Source: an uncultured Gemmatimonadales bacterium
GTDB lineage: Bacteria > Gemmatimonadota > Gemmatimonadetes > Gemmatimonadales > GWC2-71-9
Reading direction: 5' to 3'
Length of the DNA stretch: 53,303 nt
NCBI GenBank assembly: GCA_963844035.1
Contig: CAWJMT010000023.1
Span: forward strand, 1 to 53,303
Position numbers and translations under genes: made by a program. This document shows, one piece after another, positions 2,148 through 34,113 of the stretch; position 1 is the first letter of the stretch; every line of letters starts with the position of its first letter. A model generated the notes under the pieces. That model was not told the origin of the DNA. It ran no database searches and saw only the letters and a list, made by a program, of their open reading frames with translations.

Positions 2148-3543
2148 ATGACGGCGGTTTCGACGCTCGGCCGGCGAGTGGCTGGTTGGTTTCAAGGATC
2201 CGCCAACCGGCGCATCCTGGCGGCGATCCTGACCGTCGGCGGCTTCTCGGTCGTGGTCAAGCTGACTGCGACTGTGAAGGAGCTTGTGGTCGCATATCGG
2301 TTCGGCACTGGAGACGCGGTTGACGCGTTCCTGATCGCCTTCCTTGTTCCGTCGCTTGTCGTGAACGTGGTCGCAGGTTCGCTCACGGCAGCGTTTACTC
2401 CCGTCTACATCGAGGTTCGTGAGACTCAGGGGCCCTCGGCAGCCCGTCGCGTGTTTCAGAACGCTACCGCAGGAAGTGCGGCCCTTGTTCTTGTTGTGAC
2501 ATGCGTCTTGCTGGCGCTCACGCCGTTCGCTGCACGTTTCCTGGAAGGAAGTTTCAGCGCGGAGAAGCTGGCGCTTACACGGTCGCTGTTCTTTCTCCTC
2601 CTCCCGGTCATACTTCTCAACGCTGTCGTGACGATCTGGTCGGCGCTCCTGAATGCCGAGCAGCGGTTTGCATCAGTGGCGCTCGCTCCAGTGTGTGTGC
2701 CGTTGCTGACCCTGGCCATGGTTCTCGTCGCCGGTCGGACCTGGGGCATTTATTCCTTGGCCTTGGGAACGGTCTGCGGCTCTCTCGCTCAGTGTGGCGT
2801 CCTGGCGGTGGCTCTCATCCGCCAGGGGATGCCGGTGTTGCCGCGGTGGAATGGCGTGACTCCGGAGTTGCGGAAGGTCGCCTTCCAGTATGTCCCGATG
2901 GTGGCGGGAGCCGCGCTCATGAGTAGCAGCTGGGCCATAGGCCAGGCCATGGCTGCCATGCTGCCGGCGGGGAGTGTGGCGTCCCTGAACTATGGGAATA
3001 AGGTTGTCGGGATGACTACCGAAATTGGCTCGATGGCGCTGGCGACGGCCGTCCTGCCTCATTTTTCCGTGATGGTCGCGCGGCGTGATTGGTCCTCGAT
3101 CCGGAGAACTCTCCGCGTCTACGTGCGTCTGATCGTGCTGACCGCGCTACCGGCGACAGTGATCTTGATTCTCTTTTCAAGGGCAATCGTTCGGATCCTG
3201 TTCGAACGGGGCGCGTTCACGGCGGCAGACACGAGCCTCGTGGCGAGCATCCAGGTTCTCTATCTTCTGCAAGTGCCGTTCGTGATGGTGGGTATGCTGT
3301 TTGTTCGGCTGGCCTCGTCGCTCCAGAGGAACCAGATCCTCCTGTGGGGAGCGGCCATCACTTTGCCGTTGAATGTCGCTGCTCAACCTTGCATTGATGC
3401 GGTGGCTGGGCGTCGCCGGGATCGCGCTCTCAACGTCTATCGTGTTCCTCGTTTCCTGCTGCTATCTCGTGGTGTCTGTCCAGCGTGCGCTCAGGATCGC
3501 GGAGCGACGGTACCCACAAGGTCCCGTCGTCGAGGCGGCCTGA
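2148..3543 (+). CDS. MurJ/MviN-family (MOP) flippase (frameshift near 3385)
   Basis: VKELVVAYRFGTGDAVDAFLIAF, FTPVY, GSVASLNYG and ILFERGAFTAADT motifs; many TM segments. Confidence 0.9.
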
Positions 3544-3549
3544 GGAGAC

Positions 3550-4936
3550 GTGATGAGCGACTCTGCGATGAGCTCACCGAGACGAATCCCCGATCCATTG
3601 CTCTACCTCGTTCCGTTGGCGCTGGCGTTCCCACCGCTGCTGGCATACGGTGGAAGAGCGCTCGGTTGGCCGGGTGGACGGCTCTCGACCCGGTTGGCAC
3701 TGGTCGTCTGCATCGGGATCTTCCTGCTTCTCCGACTGCTGCGGCGCGACCTGTCCTACCGCCGGATCCCGGGCCTCGGGTTCGTGGCCCCTTACGTGCT
3801 GCTCGTGATCGCGTCGGTGCTGTGGGGCGTCCTGGGACCGTACAACGGCGACGCGGCAGCGATCGCGAACGAATTGCTCACCTGGTTGATCCTCGGCGCA
3901 GTATTCCTCGCCGTCGCCGGATCATTTCATGAGGAACGTGATCTCAAGGCCGCAGGCCGCGTACTCATTGCGGTAGCGCTCGTTGAGGTTGCCTACTCTG
4001 GGCTCCAGGCACTCGTCCTGACAGGAAACGATGTTCTCGTGCCCCTCCCCATCGTCGAGGTCACGCAATACGCACGTGGGGATCTGTCCGTTCGGAGCCC
4101 TCCGGCTATACGGCTCGCTGCCCAATCTCGGGCCCAACTTCTTTGGGGCATTCCTGCTTGTTCCCACGGCCTTGCTATTTAGCCGCGCATTCAGCCATCG
4201 CGGGTTCGCGCGGGCGGGGCGGCTGCTCGCAGGCGTTACGTGTGCAGCGGTGATCGCCGCGACGTATTCGCGTGGAGCCATGCTGGGACTCGCGATCGCC
4301 CTTCTCATGATTCCGGTGTGGCGCCGAAGCTGGCGGGGCGCCGTCGGAATGATGAGCGCGATCGGTCTGGCGGGTCTCCTGGCGATGCAGACACCGGTTG
4401 GACGCCACGTGACGGAGCTTTACGAATCGGGGCAGTTCGACGTGTCGGGTAGCGCGCGCTTGTATCTGTGGAAGGCGATCTTCAAGAGCGCTGCGGACCA
4501 CCCCCTCGGGCTGGGGTTCAACGGATGGCCTCGTGCAGCTCGGGTCTCGATTGACGTCGGGCTTGAGGACCCCCCGGCTACCATAGGCGCCGAGCATCCC
4601 GCAGAAAACCAATGGATGCGAGAGCTCGCCGACCGCGGCATTCCAGGAGTGGTTGCATTGGCCCTACTCGTCGGCGGGCTGATCCGCTTGACATTCCGGG
4701 CAGCGGATTCGAGGCGGTCAAGCGGGTATACCCGAGATCTCGTAGTCGCTGTGGGCGCTGCATCCGTGGGTTGGGCGTTTGCATTTCTCACCGGGGACCA
4801 TCTGATGTATGACAGTTCTGCGGGAATGATTTGGTACACGATTGCCCTTGCCCTCGGAGCGGCACGCGACGCTGTCCCACTGTTACCACAAATCGAGAGT
4901 TCTCCGTTTGAGGATGCGCTCGGCGCTCGTGCCTGA
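3550..4936 (+). CDS. O-antigen ligase / Wzy polymerase family membrane protein (frameshift near 4085)
   Basis: Polytopic protein with RLYGSLPN.GPNFFG, ATYSRGA, SARLYLWK, HPLGLG and H..N.WMRELADRGIPG Wzy_C-like motifs. Confidence 0.85.
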
Positions 4937-4948
4937 GGCGTCAGCCAG

Positions 4949-6120
4949 GTGACTCGGCGCTACCGGGTACTCCACACAATCACCCTGTTCCCGCAGTCCT
5001 CTGGCGCGGCAGAGAACACGAAACTCACTCTCAATCTGCTCGACCGCAGCCGGTTTGAGCCGTTTCTCGCTACGGCGCCAGGGCAGTCCATGGATGCGGA
5101 AGTCGCGCCTGACGTGGTCCGTATCCCCCTGAGGTTCCTGAGGCGGCCCATCAACCCGGTCGTGGATCTGTCCGCATTTGCGGAGCTCTACAGCGCGATG
5201 CGTCGCTTTCGGTTCGACGCCGTCCACACCCACAGTGCCAAGGACGGCATCCTCGGCCGGTGGGCGGCGCGCCTCGCGCGGACACCGGCCATCGTCCACA
5301 CGATCCACAACGTTTCATTCCGGGCTTCAACGAGCAGGCATCGTCAACGCACAGTACGCCATGCAGGAGCGGTGGGCCGCGCGGATCACTGATCGGCTGC
5401 TCGCGGTCTCAGCTGTGAACTCGGCCACGTACCTCGCGCGGGGCATCGGGCGCCCAGACCAGTATCGGACCGTCTACTCCGGGCTCGACTTGGCCCGTTA
5501 TGCCGACGACGGACGCCCAGCGGCGGTGCGCCGGGCCGAGATGGGGCTCCCCAGTCGACCCGGTCCGTGGGTGGGATGGCTGGGACGTTTCAACCCGCAA
5601 AAGGATCCGCTGACGTTCATCCGCGCTGCGCAGCTGGTCGTGGCCAGGTTCCCAGGCGTGCAGTTCATCGTCTGTGGTGACGATCCTTTGGAGCCTTCGC
5701 TCGAGGGAGAGGCGCGGGCTCTTGCGAGCGAGCTTGGTCTCTCAGACGCGAATGCATTTCCTGGGATTTCGGCGCGATGTGACCAACACGCTACGCAGCG
5801 TCGAGATGGTAATGCACTCGTCGCGCTACGAGGGGATGGGGCGGGTAATCTGCGAAGCGCTCGCCTGCGAGCGGCCCGTCGCCGGGACGGCGGTGGACGG
5901 TGTGGTCGAGGTCATCGACTCCGGGCAGCGCGGTGGCCTGCTTGTGCCCCCCGGCGACCCTATCGCTCTGGCCGAGGCGACTCTACGGCTGCTCAGGGAC
6001 AAGGTCTTCGCCCATGAGCTTGCGCGTGCCGGACGCCAGTGGGTAATGCAGAACCTCTCGGCGGCGACGATGGTTAGCGAGATCGAATCTGTTTACATGG
6101 AACTGCTCGATCGGGGGTAA
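4949..6120 (+). CDS. Glycosyltransferase family 4 (frameshifted)
   Basis: VHTHSAKDGILGRWAA, GRFNPQKD, FLGFRRDV, SRYEGMGRVICEALAC. Confidence 0.92.
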
Positions 6121-6208
6121 CACTGCCCAACTGCTCATCGGGTCACTCACGTAGGTCACCACGAAGGCGCCCGGACCAAAGCCGTCCCTGGTCACCTACC
6201 GCTGAGGT

Positions 6209-7241
6209 CTAGGCTTCCGAGGAAATCGGGCCAGGGATTCCGTCACTCGCCGATGGAAGACGGAGGTATTCGGGATCTCCGGAGGCCATCAGGTCGTCAC
6301 GGTGCTGCAACATGATCGCGAGCGCTGCAGCCAGGATGCCTACGACGAAGGTGACCAGAAGGACGGTGATCGAGCGCTGTGGACGAATGCGTCTCCCCGG
6401 AACCGCCGGGTGGTCGATGATCGTGAGGACGGGGGTGTTGTTGACCTCCTCGATGCGAGCCGTTTCGTATTCCCGACGCAGCGTGAGGTACAGCTCCTGC
6501 TGAACGGTCACCTGCCGCGTCAGCTGTTGCTCCTCGAAGCGCAACTTGGGTGAGCTCTGCAATTGCCGGTTGCGATCGTAGAAGGTACGCAACGCATCCT
6601 CAGCGCCGCGCAGCTCTTGCTCCGACGTGGCGACGCGTCCCTCAACAAACTTGCGCCGTTCTCCCGCCGTGCTCTGGCGGCTATGCACGTTGAAATCCGC
6701 AAGGCGGGTGATGAGAAGATCGAGGACATCGCGCGCGGCGACAGGCGATGGCGCTTCGACGGCGACGCGAACGACGTCGGTCCGCTGATCGACTCCGAGC
6801 TTCACGTGATTCCGAAGGGTCTTGATGCCGTCGTCGAGGCGTCGTTCCGGGGTGGAGCCGCGGATGCGGTACAGGTCGTAGACGGTGATGCTGTCACCCG
6901 GGACGCTCCCGGGGATCTTGGACAGCGAGCACCGCACCGAGAATCTCCCGACTCCTGAGCAGATCGGCGTAGAACGCAGGCGATCGGCTGGCTTCGGCGC
7001 CCAAGCTCATTCCGAACTGCGACGCGAGGCCCGAGAGACCTGCCGGAAGGCGCGGTTGCGCCCCGTGTTCCGCTACGAAAGACGCCGAGGCCGCGTACGT
7101 CGATGGCATCAGGAGAACGGCGATGGATGTGGCGACTGCGGCAAGGAACGGAACCCCGACGACCAGGCGAGGCCGGGCGACCAGGGCTTCCAAGACGTGG
7201 AATACGGTTCGGCGCTCGCCTGATTCGCTGGGCGTGCTCAC
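6209..7241 (-). CDS. Wzz/GNVR polysaccharide chain-length regulator (frameshifted)
   Basis: N-terminal TM followed by TYAASASF, a coiled coil, YETARIEE, IIDHPAVP..RIRPQR and a C-terminal TM. Confidence 0.85.
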
Positions 7242-7294
7242 TGCGTCGCAACCACGATGATCGCCACCGTAGCCGCCAGGATCTGCGCGACCGC
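7236..7294. repeat. 59-bp direct repeat, copy 1 (duplicated 3' end of the SLBB/wza gene)
   Basis: 57/59 identical to 8132-8190. Confidence 0.95.
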
Positions 7295-7379
7295 CGCGAC
7301 TAAAGGCGCGGCTCGGCCCTGCCCGCGAACGGGCGTGGAGGCTCGTACGACACTGAGGTGTGCTTGGTTCACAGGTGGG

Positions 7380-7949
7380 TCAGCGTCGCGGGCCCAGGAC
7401 CTCGTCCACCGAGATTGCGCCGGTGGCGACGAGGAGCGCGGCGAGTGTGTCGCCCCGTCCGAGCGTGCGAACCTCACGGTATCCCTCGGGGCCAGGGTGT
7501 CGATGGACTTCGATGACGTCGTGCTCGAGATCCACCAGCCAGGCCTCGGGAATCCTCGCCGCGGCGTAGAGTGGCAGCTTGACGTCGCGGTCCGCCGCGA
7601 GTGACGTGTCCGCGACCTCGACTACCAGGAGGATGTCTTCGGGCCCCGGGTGGGCGGTGCGGTATCCGTCGGCGCGCGGTTTGAGTACCGCGACATCGGG
7701 TTGGGGCTCCCCCCGCGCGCCCAGCACCACCGGGTTCTGCCCATGAATCATTGCGGCGTCCCCGACCCGCCGCGACAGGACCCGGATCAGCGCGTCCACG
7801 CACCCCGCGTGCTCCGGCCCAATGGGTGTCATCTCGACGACCTGACCGTCGAGCAGCTCCACGCGGTCGTCTTCGCCGAGGATCCCTGCCTCGGCCAGCC
7901 GGTGGTAATCGTCCACCGTGAACGGGCCCTTGAGTAGTCGTGTCGGCAT
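7380..7949 (-). CDS. Uma2 family (DUF820) endonuclease-like protein
   Basis: FTVDDYHRL..AGIL.EDDRVELLDG, EPQPDVAV, LLVVEVADTS..DR.VKLPLYA.A.IPE.WLVD. Confidence 0.95.
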   Translation of the reverse strand: MPTRLLKGPFTVDDYHRLAEAGILGEDDRVELLDGQVVEMTPIGPEHAGCVDALIRVLSRRVGDAAMIHGQNPVVLGARGEPQPDVAVLKPRADGYRTAHPGPEDILLVVEVADTSLAADRDVKLPLYAAARIPEAWLVDLEHDVIEVHRHPGPEGYREVRTLGRGDTLAALLVATGAISVDEVLGPRR

Positions 7950-8131
7950 GTAGGATGACCTCTCCGGTCAATCTCGGGAGCGCTGGGGGTGGCGGCAAGT
8001 GGAGGCCCGGACATGGCCGAGGATGTCAGCCGGGGCCCAGCCCATCGTCATCGGAATCGTGCCGCGTGCTGCCGTTCGGTTGCGCCGCTTCGTAGCCAGC
8101 CCTTCAACTCCGCATGCCGCATTCGCACCCC

Positions 8132-8190
8132 GCTCACTGCGTCGCAACCACGATAATCGCCACCGTGGCCGCCAGGATCTGCGCGACCGC
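8132..8190. repeat. 59-bp direct repeat, copy 2 (true 3' end of the SLBB/wza gene)
   Basis: Matches 7236-7294. Confidence 0.95.
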
Positions 8191-10376
8191 GCCCGCGAGC
8201 GCCACCCAGTCGGTGTGCACCGTCGAGTCCTTCGCCGGCACGAACACCTCCGACCCGGGCCCGGGCTTCGGGTTGCTCGAGGACAGCAGCGACGTGCCCT
8301 TGGTACGCACCTCGCCGTTCGCGTACTTCACGCTCACGCGTCCCTTGTCCGCCTTGTAGCTGAATCCGCCCGCCGCGCTGAGGTAGTACTCGAGGCTCTT
8401 GCCCTTCTGCCACAGCACGCTGCCGGGCGAGTTGACCGCGCCCGACACCTTCACGCTCGGCTGGTACTCCGGGATCAGGATCGAGTCGCCGGGCTGCAAC
8501 GTGATGTTGTGGTCCGAGGTACGATCCTTCAGCGCCTGCGGCAGCTCCACGTTGATCCGGCCCACGTCGTGCTCGGCACGGAAAAACTGGATCCCCTCCG
8601 GGTACGCCTGTGGGGTGAGGCCCCCGGCCCGGTCGATCAGGTCCGCCACGCGCTCGTCCTTCGTCTTCAATGTGTAGATGCCGGCAAACCGGACCTCGCC
8701 CGCGATGAACACGGTGCGCTGTAGCTGGAAGTCCGGCTGCTTCAGGATCAAGACGTTGTCGTACGGCTGGAGCACCACCTCGGGCGCGCCGCCCGCCGGG
8801 AAGGCCTCGCCGGCTGCGCCGAAGTAGCGGCCGGTGGAGTCGCGCTCGATCAAGTAGGTCGAATCGAGCGGCACCCGGATCGTCTCCGCGAGGCGGCCGT
8901 TGGCGCGGTCGGCCGGCAGCCGCGCGACCTCGGCCTCCTTGAGATAGGCGCCGACTCTGGGGCCGCGCGCCAGCAGCACGAGATCGCGCAGTGTGATCCC
9001 CTCGCGCCACGCGTATTGGCCCGGCTTGTTCACCATCCCGGCGATCGCGACGTACAGCGTGCTGCTGAGCCCCGGCACCGAGTCCACCACGACCGAGTCG
9101 CCGTTCTCGAGCGACACCGGCGGGACCACGACGCCGTTGATCACCGACGCCGCAGGCGCCGAGCGGGGAGCGGGCGTGAGGGCGACGTCCACGACGGCAC
9201 GCGGGTACGGCCCCGGTCCGCGCTGCGCGGCGGGGAGGATGCGGTGGACGGAGACGCGCCTGAGCGCCGCATTGGCCCGAAAGCCCCCCGCCGCCCGGAG
9301 CAGGTCCACCAGGGTTTCCGGGGCCTTCACCTCGTAGATGGCCGGCCGGATGACCGCTCCGGTGATCTGCGCCCGGGGTCCCGTGCAGCGGCACGAACAC
9401 CACGTCGCCCGGTTTCGAGCCGAATGTCGCTGCGCTTCTCTCCCCGCAAGAGATAATCGTAGAGATCGACCGACAGCTCGGGCTTGTCGATGCGGCGGAC
9501 CATGATGCGCCGCAGGTCGGCGCGGTCGGTGATGCCGCCCGCCGCATACAGCGAGGTCAGCACCGTGCCGAGCGCGCTCACCTGATACGCGCCGGGCTGC
9601 TTGACCTCGCCGATCACGTAGACCTGATTCACCCGCACGTTGACGACCGAGATGTCGAACCGCGTGGTGGCGTCGGCGCCGCGCTTCACCCCGGAGTACA
9701 CCCGGCCGAGGCGGGTGTACAGCAGGTCGCGCAGCTTGTCGAGCGTGAGATTGGCGACGAACACCTGCCCCACCTGGGGGATCAGCACGAATCCTTCGCG
9801 CGTCACCTGGAGCGCGTACGCGAACTCGAGCTCGCCCGTGAGGATCAGCACCAGATGATCGCCCGGGCCGAGCGCGTAGTCCGCCGGGACGGGACCGGCG
9901 AGCGTGGGCAGGAACTGCGTGGTGCTGCGCCGGAACACGTCGACGCCGAAGACGTAGTTCCCAGCCGCGAGTGATTCCGCGCGCAATGCCTCCTGCATCC
10001 GGATCATCCCGGTGTCGACGCGCATCTGGTCGGGCGGTGGCACCAGGGTCCCCAGGCCGAGCGCCTCCACCGCCGCGAGCTGGTCGGCGCCCGGGGTGAG
10101 GGCTGCCTGGCCCGGCTGCGCCGCGCCGAGATACGTATCGAGCAGGTCCGGGGGGTAACCGCTGGCCGCGAGCCGCGCGCGGACCTGATCGGGAGTCATG
10201 CCGGAGGCTTGCAGCCGCGAGCGCAGCTGCTCGGCGAGCGCGGGATTGGATTGCGCCGCCTGCAGCGCCTGGCGTACCTGGGACGGCGACGGGGTCTGCG
10301 CGAGCCCCGTGGAAGCGCCGCACAGCAGGGTTCCGACGAGCAGCGCGAGTCCGGATCGATTGCGTTGGGCGGCCAT
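8134..10376 (-). CDS. SLBB-domain polysaccharide export protein (Wza/KpsD-like; frameshift near 9380)
   Basis: Signal peptide, DYALGPGD Poly_export motif, repeated SLBB units (V.GEV..PG.Y, AAGG) and a C-terminal helix. Confidence 0.92.
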
Positions 10377-10493
10377 GGGCTCGCGCCAATATGCCTTTGT
10401 AACTGAATGCGAGTCAAGGCGTTAATCGCGTGCGCCTCGGGCGAACGTTAGCTTGTCGTCGTCCCGTCTACCTAATTGAGGAGATACGGTTGC

Positions 10494-11327
10494 ATGGGTC
10501 TGTTCGGGGCGGTGGCCCAGTATGCGCAAGACACGCTCTGCATCGTCAGAAGCCCTCATCCGTGGTCACGCCGGATGCGGCTCTGGCTGCGGCTGAATAC
10601 GCTCAGCGCGGGATTCAGGGCGGGCAACCTGCTCGGGTTTCAGGTCACTCGCTTCAGCGGCTCGACGTTCCTTCTCCTCTACCGCGAAATCTTTGCGCGT
10701 CAGTCCTATCTGTTCACGGCGCGCAGCGCGAGGCCGCTCATTCTCGATTGCGGCGCCAACATCGGCATGTCGGTCTTGTACTTCAAATGGCTCTATCCGG
10801 ACGCGGAGATCAGGGCGTTCGAGCCTGAGCCGCGAACCTTCGCCGCGCTGCAGGAAAACGTGGCGCGCAATCGTCTCGCCGATGTTGCCGTTCACAACAT
10901 TGCTCTATGGGATACCGATGGGCGCCTGGACCTCTTCGTGCCCGGGGATCAAGGTGGGAGTCTGGTCGCGAGCGCCAATCCCGCGCGGAGAGGCGGGACC
11001 GCCGTCAGCGTGCCGTGCGCCCGGCTGTCGTCGTTCATCGAACGTGAAGTCGACTTTCTCAAGATCGACGTGGAAGGCGCCGAGCTACGGATTCTCACGG
11101 ACCTGGCACAGTCGGGAAAACTGCGCCTCATCCGCCAAATGGTCATCGAATATCATCACAACATCCCCTCAGAGCCGGCGGCGCTGTCGCGCCTGCTGCA
11201 TCTCCTCGAGGACGCGGGCTTTACCTATCAAATGTCGGCGTGGTCCTTTCCCCTGGTCGGGAAAGAACATTTTCAGGATGTGCTCATCGGGGCGGTGCGG
11301 GCGGGGACCGTGGCGGGCGACGAGTAG
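10494..11327 (+). CDS. FkbM family methyltransferase
   Basis: ILDCGANIG, AFEPEP, FLKIDVEGAE, IEYH. Confidence 0.93.
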   Translation: MGLFGAVAQYAQDTLCIVRSPHPWSRRMRLWLRLNTLSAGFRAGNLLGFQVTRFSGSTFLLLYREIFARQSYLFTARSARPLILDCGANIGMSVLYFKWLYPDAEIRAFEPEPRTFAALQENVARNRLADVAVHNIALWDTDGRLDLFVPGDQGGSLVASANPARRGGTAVSVPCARLSSFIEREVDFLKIDVEGAELRILTDLAQSGKLRLIRQMVIEYHHNIPSEPAALSRLLHLLEDAGFTYQMSAWSFPLVGKEHFQDVLIGAVRAGTVAGDE

Positions 11328-11333
11328 CGCGAT

Positions 11334-11432
11334 CGCGGCTAAAGCCGCGGCTCGGCGTCTCCCGCTAAAGCGGGTTAGCGCGCCGCCCGTTTACGGGCAG
11401 GTGCCGAGCCGCGAGTTCACTCGCGCCGGCGA
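11334..11432. repeat. REPIN/BIME-like multi-hairpin repeat, left copy
   Basis: Hairpins CGCGGC-TAAA-GCCGCG, CCCGC-TAAA-GCGGG, GCCCG-TTTA-CGGGC and CGCGAG-TTCA-CTCGCG; near-identical to 12039-12136. Confidence 0.9.
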
Positions 11433-11523
11433 ACCGCGCGTTCACGGGCGAGCAGCGGGCTCTCGCGCCGATCCGCATTGAAATGATGACGCTCGCGTCA
11501 GAACTCGTGCGACACTCACGCCT

Positions 11524-11985
11524 GTGATCCACCGTCTCTACTGCCACGTCGTCTGGACCACGCGGAACCGAGAACCAGTCATTGATGCCGGACTGGCGCG
11601 TTTCCTTAGCGGCTTTCTCCGCGGTGTTGCGCGACAGGAGCGCACGCGAGTGCTCGAGATCGGGATGGTGGCGACGCATGTGCACTTGCTGATCCGTATC
11701 CACCCGACCACGGATTTGAGTCGCCTACTACAACGATTGAAGGGCGGTAGCTCCGCCGTCGCCGGCAAAGAGCGGCACACAACTCATGGCAACAGGCTCC
11801 GTTGGGCGAAGGGGTATTCCATCCACTCGGTCAGTCCTCGAACCATCGCCGTGGTACGCGACTATGTGCGGGGTCAGCCAACGCGGCACCCTGATGAGGC
11901 CATTCTGGACTGGGGTGGAGCGAGCCCGGAGTACGATCGATCGACTCAGGACGAGTGGAGGTCTGACCTGCGGCGTCGAGTGTGA
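11524..11985 (+). mobile_element. tnpA: IS200/IS605-family Y1 HUH transposase (TnpA, RAYT-like)
   Basis: LYCHVVWTTRNR, HUH motif HVH, LKGGSS, WAKGYS.HSVS, catalytic YVRGQ; no tnpB. Confidence 0.92.
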
Positions 11986-12038
11986 GTAAGGGCGCGGCTG
12001 AAGCGCGGCTGCGAGGTGCCGAGGCCCGCCCGCGGGTG

Positions 12039-12136
12039 CGCGGCTAAAGCCGCGGCTCGGCATCTCCCGCTAAAGCGGGCTGGGCGCCGCCCGTTTACGG
12101 GCAGGTGCCGAGCCGCGAGTTCACTCGCGCCGGCGA
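12039..12136. repeat. REPIN/BIME-like multi-hairpin repeat, right copy (degenerate extra unit at ~11992-12035)
   Basis: Direct repeat of 11334-11432. Confidence 0.9.
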
Positions 12137-33712: not shown

Positions 33713-34113
33713 GTGAGTGGCAGTAGCCATCGCGCGCTGCGGGCTTTACGCGCACGTCACATGGCACACGTGGCGGCGGGTGGCCCAGATACGCAAGGCG
33801 ACGTGCCGCTCATCGCTGACAGCATTCTGAACGCCGGCGAGTCGCACAGGCGTGCGGGTGCATGCGCAGGCCGTCCTCACCGACCACGTCCACGTGCTGG
33901 TGAGCTTCCCACCCGCGGTGGCGCTCGCGTCCTTCTTCCGTGAGGCCAAGTCCGAATCGGCCGGCGCGTCAATGTTGCACGGGACGCGATGGGCAGCGCG
34001 TACGGTGGTGTCGCGGCTACTACGCGGGATCACTGTCCCGAGACCACGTCGGCCGCGACGCGGGTCTACGTCGCGACGGCAGTTTCCGCGCACCCAGATC
34101 GCATCCCGGCTAG
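33713..34113 (+). mobile_element. tnpA: Second IS200/IS605-family Y1 HUH transposase (RAYT-like, multiple frameshifts)
   Basis: Fragments across frames: LYAHVTWHT, DHVHVLVSFPP, AKSES, WCRGYYAGSLS, VYVA..Q...HP; flanked by palindromes. Confidence 0.8.

What the first reader, a model, noticed from the sequence alone, without database searches (positions are those of the whole stretch)
7236..8190. Uma2 cassette inserted at the wza-wzz junction with a 59-bp duplication of the wza 3' end
Seen: the last 18 codons plus stop of the SLBB gene occur twice (8132-8190 and 7236-7294), with only two differences, both synonymous (GCC/GCT, ATT/ATC). The repeats bracket ~840 bp containing a lone Uma2 gene and no integrase or transposase. 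The wza-proximal end of the insert starts with an ATTCCGC-type heptamer arm (8101-8131). Inference: an att-like or recombination-mediated insertion of a minimal Uma2 element. It could excise by recombination between the repeats and restore the wza-wzz overlap. This hints at Uma2 mobility, which is poorly understood.
Basis: partly seen in the sequence, partly recalled or inferred. Interest (0 to 1): 0.7.

Follow-up and report, generated by a model that had tools for sequence, protein, structure and literature searches.

The report
Spare wza tail as gene-landing arm
A small nuclease gene (Uma2) sits between two copies of the last 59 bases of a polysaccharide-export gene, close relatives lack exactly this 896-base piece, and related soil bacteria carry other small genes in the same spot, so the spare gene tail likely serves as a reusable landing arm through which genes are swapped in by recombination.

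Summary
The repeat is real (59 nt, two synonymous differences), and contigs from two other studies show the empty wza-wzz site. Uma2 is cargo, not the driver. The same hairpin|wza-tail joint occurs in three other lineages, with aspartyl-protease or other cargo. A private decay signature suggests the joint arose once. Orphan tails without a hairpin also occur: 6 of 61 wza ends examined carry a spare tail (biased sample). In G006 and L080 the same upstream block (96.5% identical) switches to different wzz genes (68%) at the end of the orphan tail. Best reading (0.55): rhs-like 3'-end displacement. A tail-cargo-hairpin unit recombines into the wza tail, restores wza and pushes the old tail downstream, where it keeps the wzz start codon. 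The circle, RecA dependence and a role for the Y1 enzyme are inferred. New variant of a known kind.

The parts
8134..10389 (-). wza-like polysaccharide export gene (Poly_export + SLBB); one frame change near 9381-9408, probably a long-read indel
   Evidence: Pfam PF02563, PF10531, PF22461; collinear with an intact homologue in two frames
8132..8190 (-). Tail 1: the working last 18 codons + stop of wza
8101..8131 (-). Degenerate heptamer tract of a type common in this genome
7380..7949 (-). Uma2 (DUF820) predicted PD-(D/E)XK nuclease, the cargo gene
   Evidence: PF05685; weak match to PADLOC candidate system PDC-S03, E 3e-13; PDB 9y1l E 1e-5
7341..7353 (-). Probable remnant of the decayed first half of the REP doublet, weakly shared with the G006 and L083 joints
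   Evidence: alignment; post hoc pattern
7295..7335 (.). Decayed half of a REP doublet (two short palindromes); its foot abuts the orphan tail
   Evidence: 83-88% identical to REP doublets elsewhere in the genome; same joint in G006 and L078-L083
7236..7294 (-). Tail 2: orphan copy of the wza 3' end; holds the wzz start codon
7238..7372 (-). Possible 44-codon mini-ORF (GTG just after the Uma2 stop) that reads into the orphan tail and ends on the wzz start; could relay translation, no clear ribosome-binding site; speculative
6209..7241 (-). wzz-like chain-length regulator; frame change near 6900-6925, probably a long-read indel
   Evidence: PF02706 (weak), PF13807; contigs of X1 and X2 lack one base at 6923
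11524..11985 (+). IS200-type Y1 (HUH) transposase gene; candidate enzyme for this REP family, acting in trans
   Evidence: PF01797; NF033573 75 bits over cut-off 55, NF047646 (RAYT) 32 bits under cut-off 80
11334..11430 (.). Intact REP doublet left of the Y1 gene
12039..12133 (.). Intact REP doublet right of the Y1 gene, same orientation

Best explanation
The 896-base piece is a recent insertion into an otherwise intact wza-wzz junction, and it likely arrived by 3'-end displacement: a unit of wza tail + Uma2 + decayed REP hairpin likely recombined through the ~60-base tail homology, giving wza a new end and pushing the old end downstream. Shown: the repeat, the empty site, the fixed hairpin|tail joint in four lineages, different cargo at that joint, and a switch of downstream gene at the orphan tail. 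Inferred: (1) the joint was made once, when a REP doublet was joined to wza about 57-60 nt before the stop, probably by the Y1 (HUH) transposase; (2) since then the orphan tail has acted as a portable homology arm, so cargo enters empty wza-wzz sites by host recombination, either as a circle looped out between two tails (single crossover) or as linear DNA using the wza body and the orphan tail as arms; (3) the arrangement is tolerated because wza stays whole and the wzz start codon stays on the displaced tail; (4) Uma2 is a passenger, one of a pool of small candidate-defence and toxin-antitoxin genes.
For: Empty alleles in runs of two studies, X4 about 97% identical on both sides. Hairpin|tail joint within 3 nt of the same wza position in G000, G006/L081, L079/L080 and L078/L082/L083; short X1 contigs hold the joint and run on into DNA unlike the Uma2 side. 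Cargo next to the joint differs: Uma2 here, one or two aspartyl proteases in G006/L080, other DNA in L083. A decayed first half of the doublet is shared by G006/L081 and L078/82/83 and was found at no other place in 121 genomes or 247 loci, which points to one origin. G006 vs L080: wza + protease block 96.5% identical over 1,687 nt, joint 94.7% over 94 nt, wzz 68%. The same protease cassette follows four different wza tail alleles (L031, L083, L096, L111). Arrays of orphan tails in L083 and L238, and tail lengths of 59, 66, ~100 and ~330 nt, as the two-step circle model of rhs predicts (PMC2935791 passages). Older orphan tails decay: missense in L081, lost stop in L096, frameshift in L127.
Against: No circle or excision product was seen; the source sample's reads were not available and the wza-side joint (7928-8095) had no cover in any run laid. 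Tail 2 has this species' own codons from position +4 after the joint (GTC where other joints have ATC), so a crossover or conversion must have reached the very edge of the homology; a freshly made duplication explains this more simply. In G006 the two tails agree at only 39 of 54 positions, too few for recombination between them today. The signature linking the window's joint to the others is weak and was scored post hoc. Several orphan tails may be deletion relics of whole wza copies (L246 keeps only the start and end of a wza; L094 has two whole wza genes). Sixty bases is a short arm for RecA (own knowledge).
Confidence: 0.55

Rival explanations
1. Each insertion is made afresh by the Y1 transposase: it nicks wza about 59 nt before the stop, the free 3' end re-copies the tail by strand displacement, and the REP foot of a cargo-REP module is joined to the displaced old tail, giving a 59-nt target duplication in one event.
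For: Joint exactly at the hairpin foot; tails 97% alike here; Y1 gene 4 kb away between two doublets, and all 5 distinct Y1 homologues in the fetched loci have the REP within 400 nt (3 of the 5 loci were fetched through the REP, so partly circular); Uma2 followed directly by this REP in G157 and three times in G186 (5 of 37 Uma2 ends); E. coli TnpA(REP) cleaves and transfers strands near REPs and was proposed to capture flanking genes (PMC3333891 passages).
Against: Only 1 of 90 distinct REP feet examined in fetched loci had a gene-tail copy, and that was the G006 wza joint. The hairpin here is decayed and its stretch folds no better than shuffles (z -0.46). The shared decay signature suggests inheritance. 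Orphan tails without this REP exist (L083 tail B, L096, L127, L238).
Confidence: 0.2
2. A longer piece of wza was duplicated when foreign DNA was added, and the redundant copy was then eroded by deletion down to the last ~60 nt, which are kept because they hold the wzz start; the REP only marks a favoured deletion end.
For: Longer and internally deleted wza relics in G020 (L063, L246) and a whole second wza in L094.
Against: The insertion here is recent (empty allele about 97% identical) yet ends at the same joint as in other species; repeated erosion to the same base is unlikely without the joint being inherited.
Confidence: 0.15
3. Uma2 is a homing-type nuclease that cuts the empty wza-wzz site and is copied in with a duplication of the target.
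For: Uma2 or a fragment lies next to a wza end in G000, G020, G186 and G286; a review table notes mobile-element contexts and multiple transfers for the family (PMC3424549, one passage).
Against: The same joint carries non-nuclease cargo. The target sequence survives twice in the filled allele, which a homing nuclease would cut again (own reasoning). The other 4 of 5 Uma2 genes here have no such repeat.
Confidence: 0.05
4. The duplication is an assembly artefact of an indel-rich long-read genome.
For: The window has many frameshifts, including in wza and wzz; no independent contig covers the wza-side joint.
Against: Two synonymous differences between the copies; independent short contigs hold the tail|hairpin joint with 1-2 differences; the same architecture is in other assemblies.
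Confidence: 0.03

Closest known systems
rhs / mafB C-terminal displacement (Jackson et al. 2009, PMC2935791; passages read)
   Same: Intact gene followed by orphan copies of its 3' part as direct repeats, small genes in between, arrays, fragments of variable length, a proposed two-step homologous recombination through a circle.
   Different: The host is a polysaccharide-export gene, not a polymorphic toxin; the tips are homologous, so the protein end barely changes and the payload is the intervening gene; a fixed REP joint marks one class of orphan tails.
Minimal mobile elements of Neisseria (definition read in PMC3787668 passages; original papers not read)
   Same: Variable small genes between conserved flanks, no mobility gene, exchange by homologous recombination.
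   Different: Here one flank end is duplicated and the downstream gene also varies; flank duplication is not part of the definition read.
REP/BIME with TnpA(REP) (PMC3333891 passages) and IS200/IS605 Y1 transposases (PMC6006769 passages and sections 17-18)
   Same: Palindromic doublets flanking a single Y1 gene and dispersed in the genome; possible capture of flanking genes.
   Different: The enzyme scores as IS200-like, not RAYT; its Y motif is close to subclass 1.2, which that paper describes as generally without such structures; it lies outside the insert; only one end of the insert has a hairpin.
Integrative elements that restore the 3' end of a target gene (attL/attR duplication; recalled, not from a call)
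   Same: Target gene end duplicated and kept intact; precise empty site.
   Different: No integrase; tail lengths vary between loci; the unit is under 1 kb.
REP sequences at recombination points flanking E. coli O157-antigen clusters (PMC3158064 passages)
   Same: REPs coincide with exchange points at a polysaccharide locus.
   Different: No gene-end duplication or small-gene cargo was described in the passages read.

Membership tests
rhs-type 3'-end displacement | Intact gene followed by an orphan direct-repeat copy of its 3' part with intervening genes | tested here: met
rhs-type 3'-end displacement | Arrays of several orphan ends with variable fragment length | tested here: met
   In relatives only: L083, L238; 59 to ~330 nt
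rhs-type 3'-end displacement | Non-homologous, interchangeable C-terminal tips on a conserved core | tested here: not met
   All tails are homologous wza ends; works like it, is not an rhs system
rhs-type 3'-end displacement | Circular intermediate | not testable with these tools
Minimal mobile element | Variable gene content between conserved flanking genes among close relatives, including an empty form | tested here: met
   Empty form; other cargo
Minimal mobile element | Both flanking genes conserved and used as homology arms | tested here: inconclusive
   wzz side switches at the orphan tail in G006 vs L080; many wza ends have no wzz next to them
IS200/IS605 element or its non-autonomous derivative | Hairpins at both ends of the unit | tested here: not met
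   Only the wzz-side end is a REP half; the other end is a heptamer tract with weak folding, z +0.52
IS200/IS605 element or its non-autonomous derivative | A cognate Y1 (HUH) transposase in the genome | tested here: met
   11524-11985, NF033573 over cut-off, flanked by the same REP family
RAYT/REPIN system | Transposase of the REP-associated tyrosine transposase family | tested here: not met
   NF047646 32 bits, cut-off 80
RAYT/REPIN system | Inverted REP doublets next to the transposase gene and dispersed in the genome | tested here: met
   29 pattern matches in G000 with 0 in the reversed control; 24 of 61 genomes
Integron gene cassette | attC core sites RYYYAAC / GTTRRRY bounding the cassette (motifs recalled) | tested here: not met
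   0 of either motif on either strand of 7226-8200
Integrase-driven att island | Site-specific recombinase encoded in the unit | tested here: not met
Homing endonuclease gene | Nuclease cuts the empty site and not the filled site | not testable with these tools
   Needs biochemistry; the target persists twice in the filled allele

The most novel reading that the evidence does not exclude
Gemmatimonadales run an integrase-free, integron-like gene-capture system: an IS200-type Y1 enzyme moves REP-tagged small defence and toxin-antitoxin genes (as in the 12-doublet array with several Uma2, HepT-nucleotidyltransferase pairs and the Y1 gene just before wza in G186) and docks them at the wza 3' end, where the re-copied tail keeps the capsule operon intact and gives a self-targeting, excisable cassette.
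Probability: 0.2. Interest if true: 0.8.

Novelty: new variant of a known kind. Interest (0 to 1): 0.52.

Why it matters
Small genes such as Uma2, ORF6N, retropepsin-like proteases and HEPN-nucleotidyltransferase pairs spread widely without mobility genes of their own, and how they enter tightly coupled operons is poorly explained. This locus gives a concrete route with an empty allele, filled alleles and a fixed joint: a spare gene tail as a portable homology arm, first made at a REP hairpin. It would extend 3'-end displacement from polymorphic toxins to a capsule-export gene, explain Uma2 spread as hitch-hiking, and give a direct test of gene capture by REP-associated Y1 enzymes.

Tried and rejected
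The first genome-wide gene-end scan was too noisy and its output was cut; repeated with filters. A genus-wide joint pattern of fixed spacing found only the window (1 of 7) because the G006 joint is 3 nt shorter. Viral contigs: 0 matches for the tail and 0 for the REP. Sequencing runs: no holder above 0.17 of the words and no RNA holder listed, so expression and excision in the source population are untested; X6 laid no contig; the stretch 7928-8095 had no cover. A joint 7303 to 8452 with unknown letters between, in X1-X3 (one study), is unexplained. REP insertion as a general maker of gene-end duplications was rejected: 1 of 90 REP feet (other flank copies were REP, heptamer or other repeats, judged by eye). 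Direct repeats bracketing Uma2 in 29 loci and 16 wider regions from 19 genomes were hairpin repeats, duplicated cargo or REP doublets; wza tails only in G020 and G186. Integron cassette and inverted-repeat transposon rejected. Folding of the hairpin stretch and of the tail was no better than shuffles. Literature searches returned no paper describing orphan wza tails or this REP family; the library lacks most subscription papers, and no supplements were read. Look-ups in earlier scan notes by sequence, place and specific words were empty. One of 7 loci with a second tail (L094, a whole second wza gene) was dropped to give 6 of 61; 16 of 77 wza ends were left out for having under 1 kb downstream.

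Full report
Observation. The repeat is as described: 7236-7294 and 8132-8190, 59 nt, two differences, both synonymous, 896 nt apart. It covers the last 18 codons, the stop and two more bases of a wza-like export gene. The downstream copy holds the GTG start of a wzz-like gene, overlapping its TGA. The 837 nt between hold one Uma2 gene. Among 3,508 gene-like ORF ends of the genome, 20 had a nearby copy and only this one is a short gene-end duplication (judged by eye). Related records are titled Gemmatimonadales or Gemmatimonadota in most cases. The assembly is rich in single-base frameshifts, which split wza and wzz.

The empty site exists. A 341-nt contig of run X4 covers 7029-7235 and 8132-8265, skipping exactly 896 nt, with 10 differences. 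A contig of run X8, from another study, covers 7193-7294 and continues into the wza body (29 of 30 loose letters match 8191-8220). The insertion is therefore recent or polymorphic. No run covered the wza-side joint, so that side rests on this assembly alone.

The insert's wzz-side end, 7295-7335, is half of a ~95-nt doublet of short palindromes present at 17 sites in the genome. Two intact doublets flank a Y1 (HUH) transposase gene at 11524-11985, which scores as IS200-like and not as RAYT. The REP pattern is found in 24 of 61 related genomes, with 2 control matches in all. The copy at the joint is decayed. The heptamer tract at the other end is a generic repeat of this genome.

The joint recurs with other cargo. 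G006 has wza, an aspartyl-protease gene, the same half doublet, a second wza tail and wzz. One metagenome scan gave 6 more contigs of three types: L081 like G006; L079/L080 with two proteases; L078/L082/L083 with hairpin|tail, ORF6N, a second hairpin-free tail and the protease, and in L083 a Uma2 further upstream. All joints lie within 3 nt of the same wza position. Short X1 contigs hold the window's joint and run on into other DNA. A decayed first half of the doublet is shared by the G006/L081 and L078/82/83 joints and was found nowhere else in 121 genomes or 247 loci; the window has a weaker version (post hoc). This points to one origin of the joint. REP feet in general do not carry gene-end copies: 1 of 90, the G006 joint itself.

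The orphan tail behaves as an exchange point. G006 and L080 share wza and the first protease at 96.5% over 1,687 nt and the joint at 94.7% over 94 nt, then lead into wzz genes only 68% alike. The same protease cassette follows four different tail alleles. Orphan tails without this hairpin occur in G186, G020, L096 and L083, with lengths from 66 to about 330 nt, and some have decayed. In all, 6 of 61 distinct wza ends with at least 1 kb downstream carry an orphan tail (a seventh was a whole second gene; the loci were fetched by likeness to wza or its tail, so this is no population frequency).

Uma2 is a passenger. The other four Uma2 genes of the genome have no such repeat. Uma2 and ORF6N match candidate defence models in PADLOC. 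Uma2 is, however, often near this machinery: 5 of 37 Uma2 ends have the REP within 200 nt, and G186 has a 12-doublet array with several Uma2 genes, toxin-antitoxin-like pairs and the Y1 gene directly before wza.

Mechanism. I favour 3'-end displacement by host recombination (0.55). Shown: repeat, empty site, fixed joint, cargo variety, downstream switch. Inferred: a single Y1-made joint; later entry of tail-cargo-hairpin units through the tail homology, as circle or linear DNA; tolerance because wza is restored and the wzz start stays on the old tail. Against it: no circle was seen, the window's orphan tail has species-specific codons from the fourth base after the joint, and the G006 tails agree at only 39 of 54 positions. 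The main rival (0.2) is a fresh Y1-made 59-nt duplication; erosion of a longer duplicate (0.15), Uma2 homing (0.05) and artefact (0.03) follow.

Comparison. It works like rhs C-terminal displacement, whose proposed model is excision and re-integration of a circle through the conserved core (PMC2935791, passages), but it fails the defining feature of non-homologous tips, so it is not an rhs system. It resembles Neisseria minimal mobile elements (PMC3787668, passages), with a duplicated flank added. REP-linked Y1 enzymes are known to cleave and transfer strands and were proposed to capture flanking genes (PMC3333891, passages); REPs were noted at exchange points of O157-antigen clusters (PMC3158064, passages). 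Y1 subclasses were read in PMC6006769 (passages and sections 17-18) and the Uma2 family entry in PMC3424549 (one passage). It is not an integron cassette, an inverted-repeat transposon or an integrase island. Nine literature searches showed no description of orphan wza tails or of this REP family; supplements were not read. Earlier unchecked scan notes describe a similar hairpin-plus-gene-end duplication at smc in another lineage and a hairpin cassette duplicating gene ends in an archaeon, and an integron and heptamer arrays elsewhere in this genome; I did not test them and they are leads only.

Verdict. Observation confirmed; interpretation partly supported; a new variant of a known kind; interest 0.52. 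The boldest reading left open, a Y1/REP-run integron-like capture system docking at wza, has probability about 0.2 and would merit 0.8.

Noticed in passing
L231 (G186:C58:18000-37999), about 2800-11100: Array of 12 REP doublets of the same family separating small genes (three intact Uma2 and one broken, two nucleotidyltransferase-HepT pairs, a PBECR2-like gene, the Y1 transposase) between hflX and wza; looks like an integron array with REPs in place of attC. After wza: Uma2 fragment, orphan tail, another nucleotidyltransferase-HepT pair.
   Followed up: partly
window 11334-12133: Y1 transposase gene between two REP doublets in the same orientation; Y motif near subclass 1.2 of PMC6006769, a class reported as generally lacking terminal structures. 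The REP pattern is in 24 of 61 related genomes and 0 of 12 in one family.
   Followed up: partly
L205 (G157:C91): Uma2 - doublet - Y1 gene - doublet, the same REP family.
   Followed up: partly
L238 and L246 (G020): Two orphan wza tails 1.5 kb apart among three Uma2 copies; on another contig a wza reduced to its first ~150 and last ~90 bases, followed by a HEPN gene.
   Followed up: partly
L096, 3654-3730: Orphan wza tail 2.9 kb after wza, closing a block of wzz and a probable O-antigen ligase gene: displacement may also add polysaccharide genes. The record title names another phylum, but the locus resembles the Gemmatimonadales ones.
   Followed up: partly
G000:C5 199970-201060 and 185694-186329: Two further Y1 genes, each flanked by its own different palindromic repeat family.
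   Followed up: no
G000:C6:30369, C14:6581, C36:213553, C37:174012: Four REP doublets share an extra conserved flank of about 50 nt on one side, suggesting a longer element.
   Followed up: no
window 33741-33962: Degraded Y1 transposase remnant.
   Followed up: no
whole window: Many genes are split by single-base frameshifts, typical of an unpolished long-read assembly; broken genes here should not be read as pseudogenes.
   Followed up: partly
G000:C37 2009-3095: Tandem pair of Uma2 genes, 78% identical, about 551-nt period.
   Followed up: no
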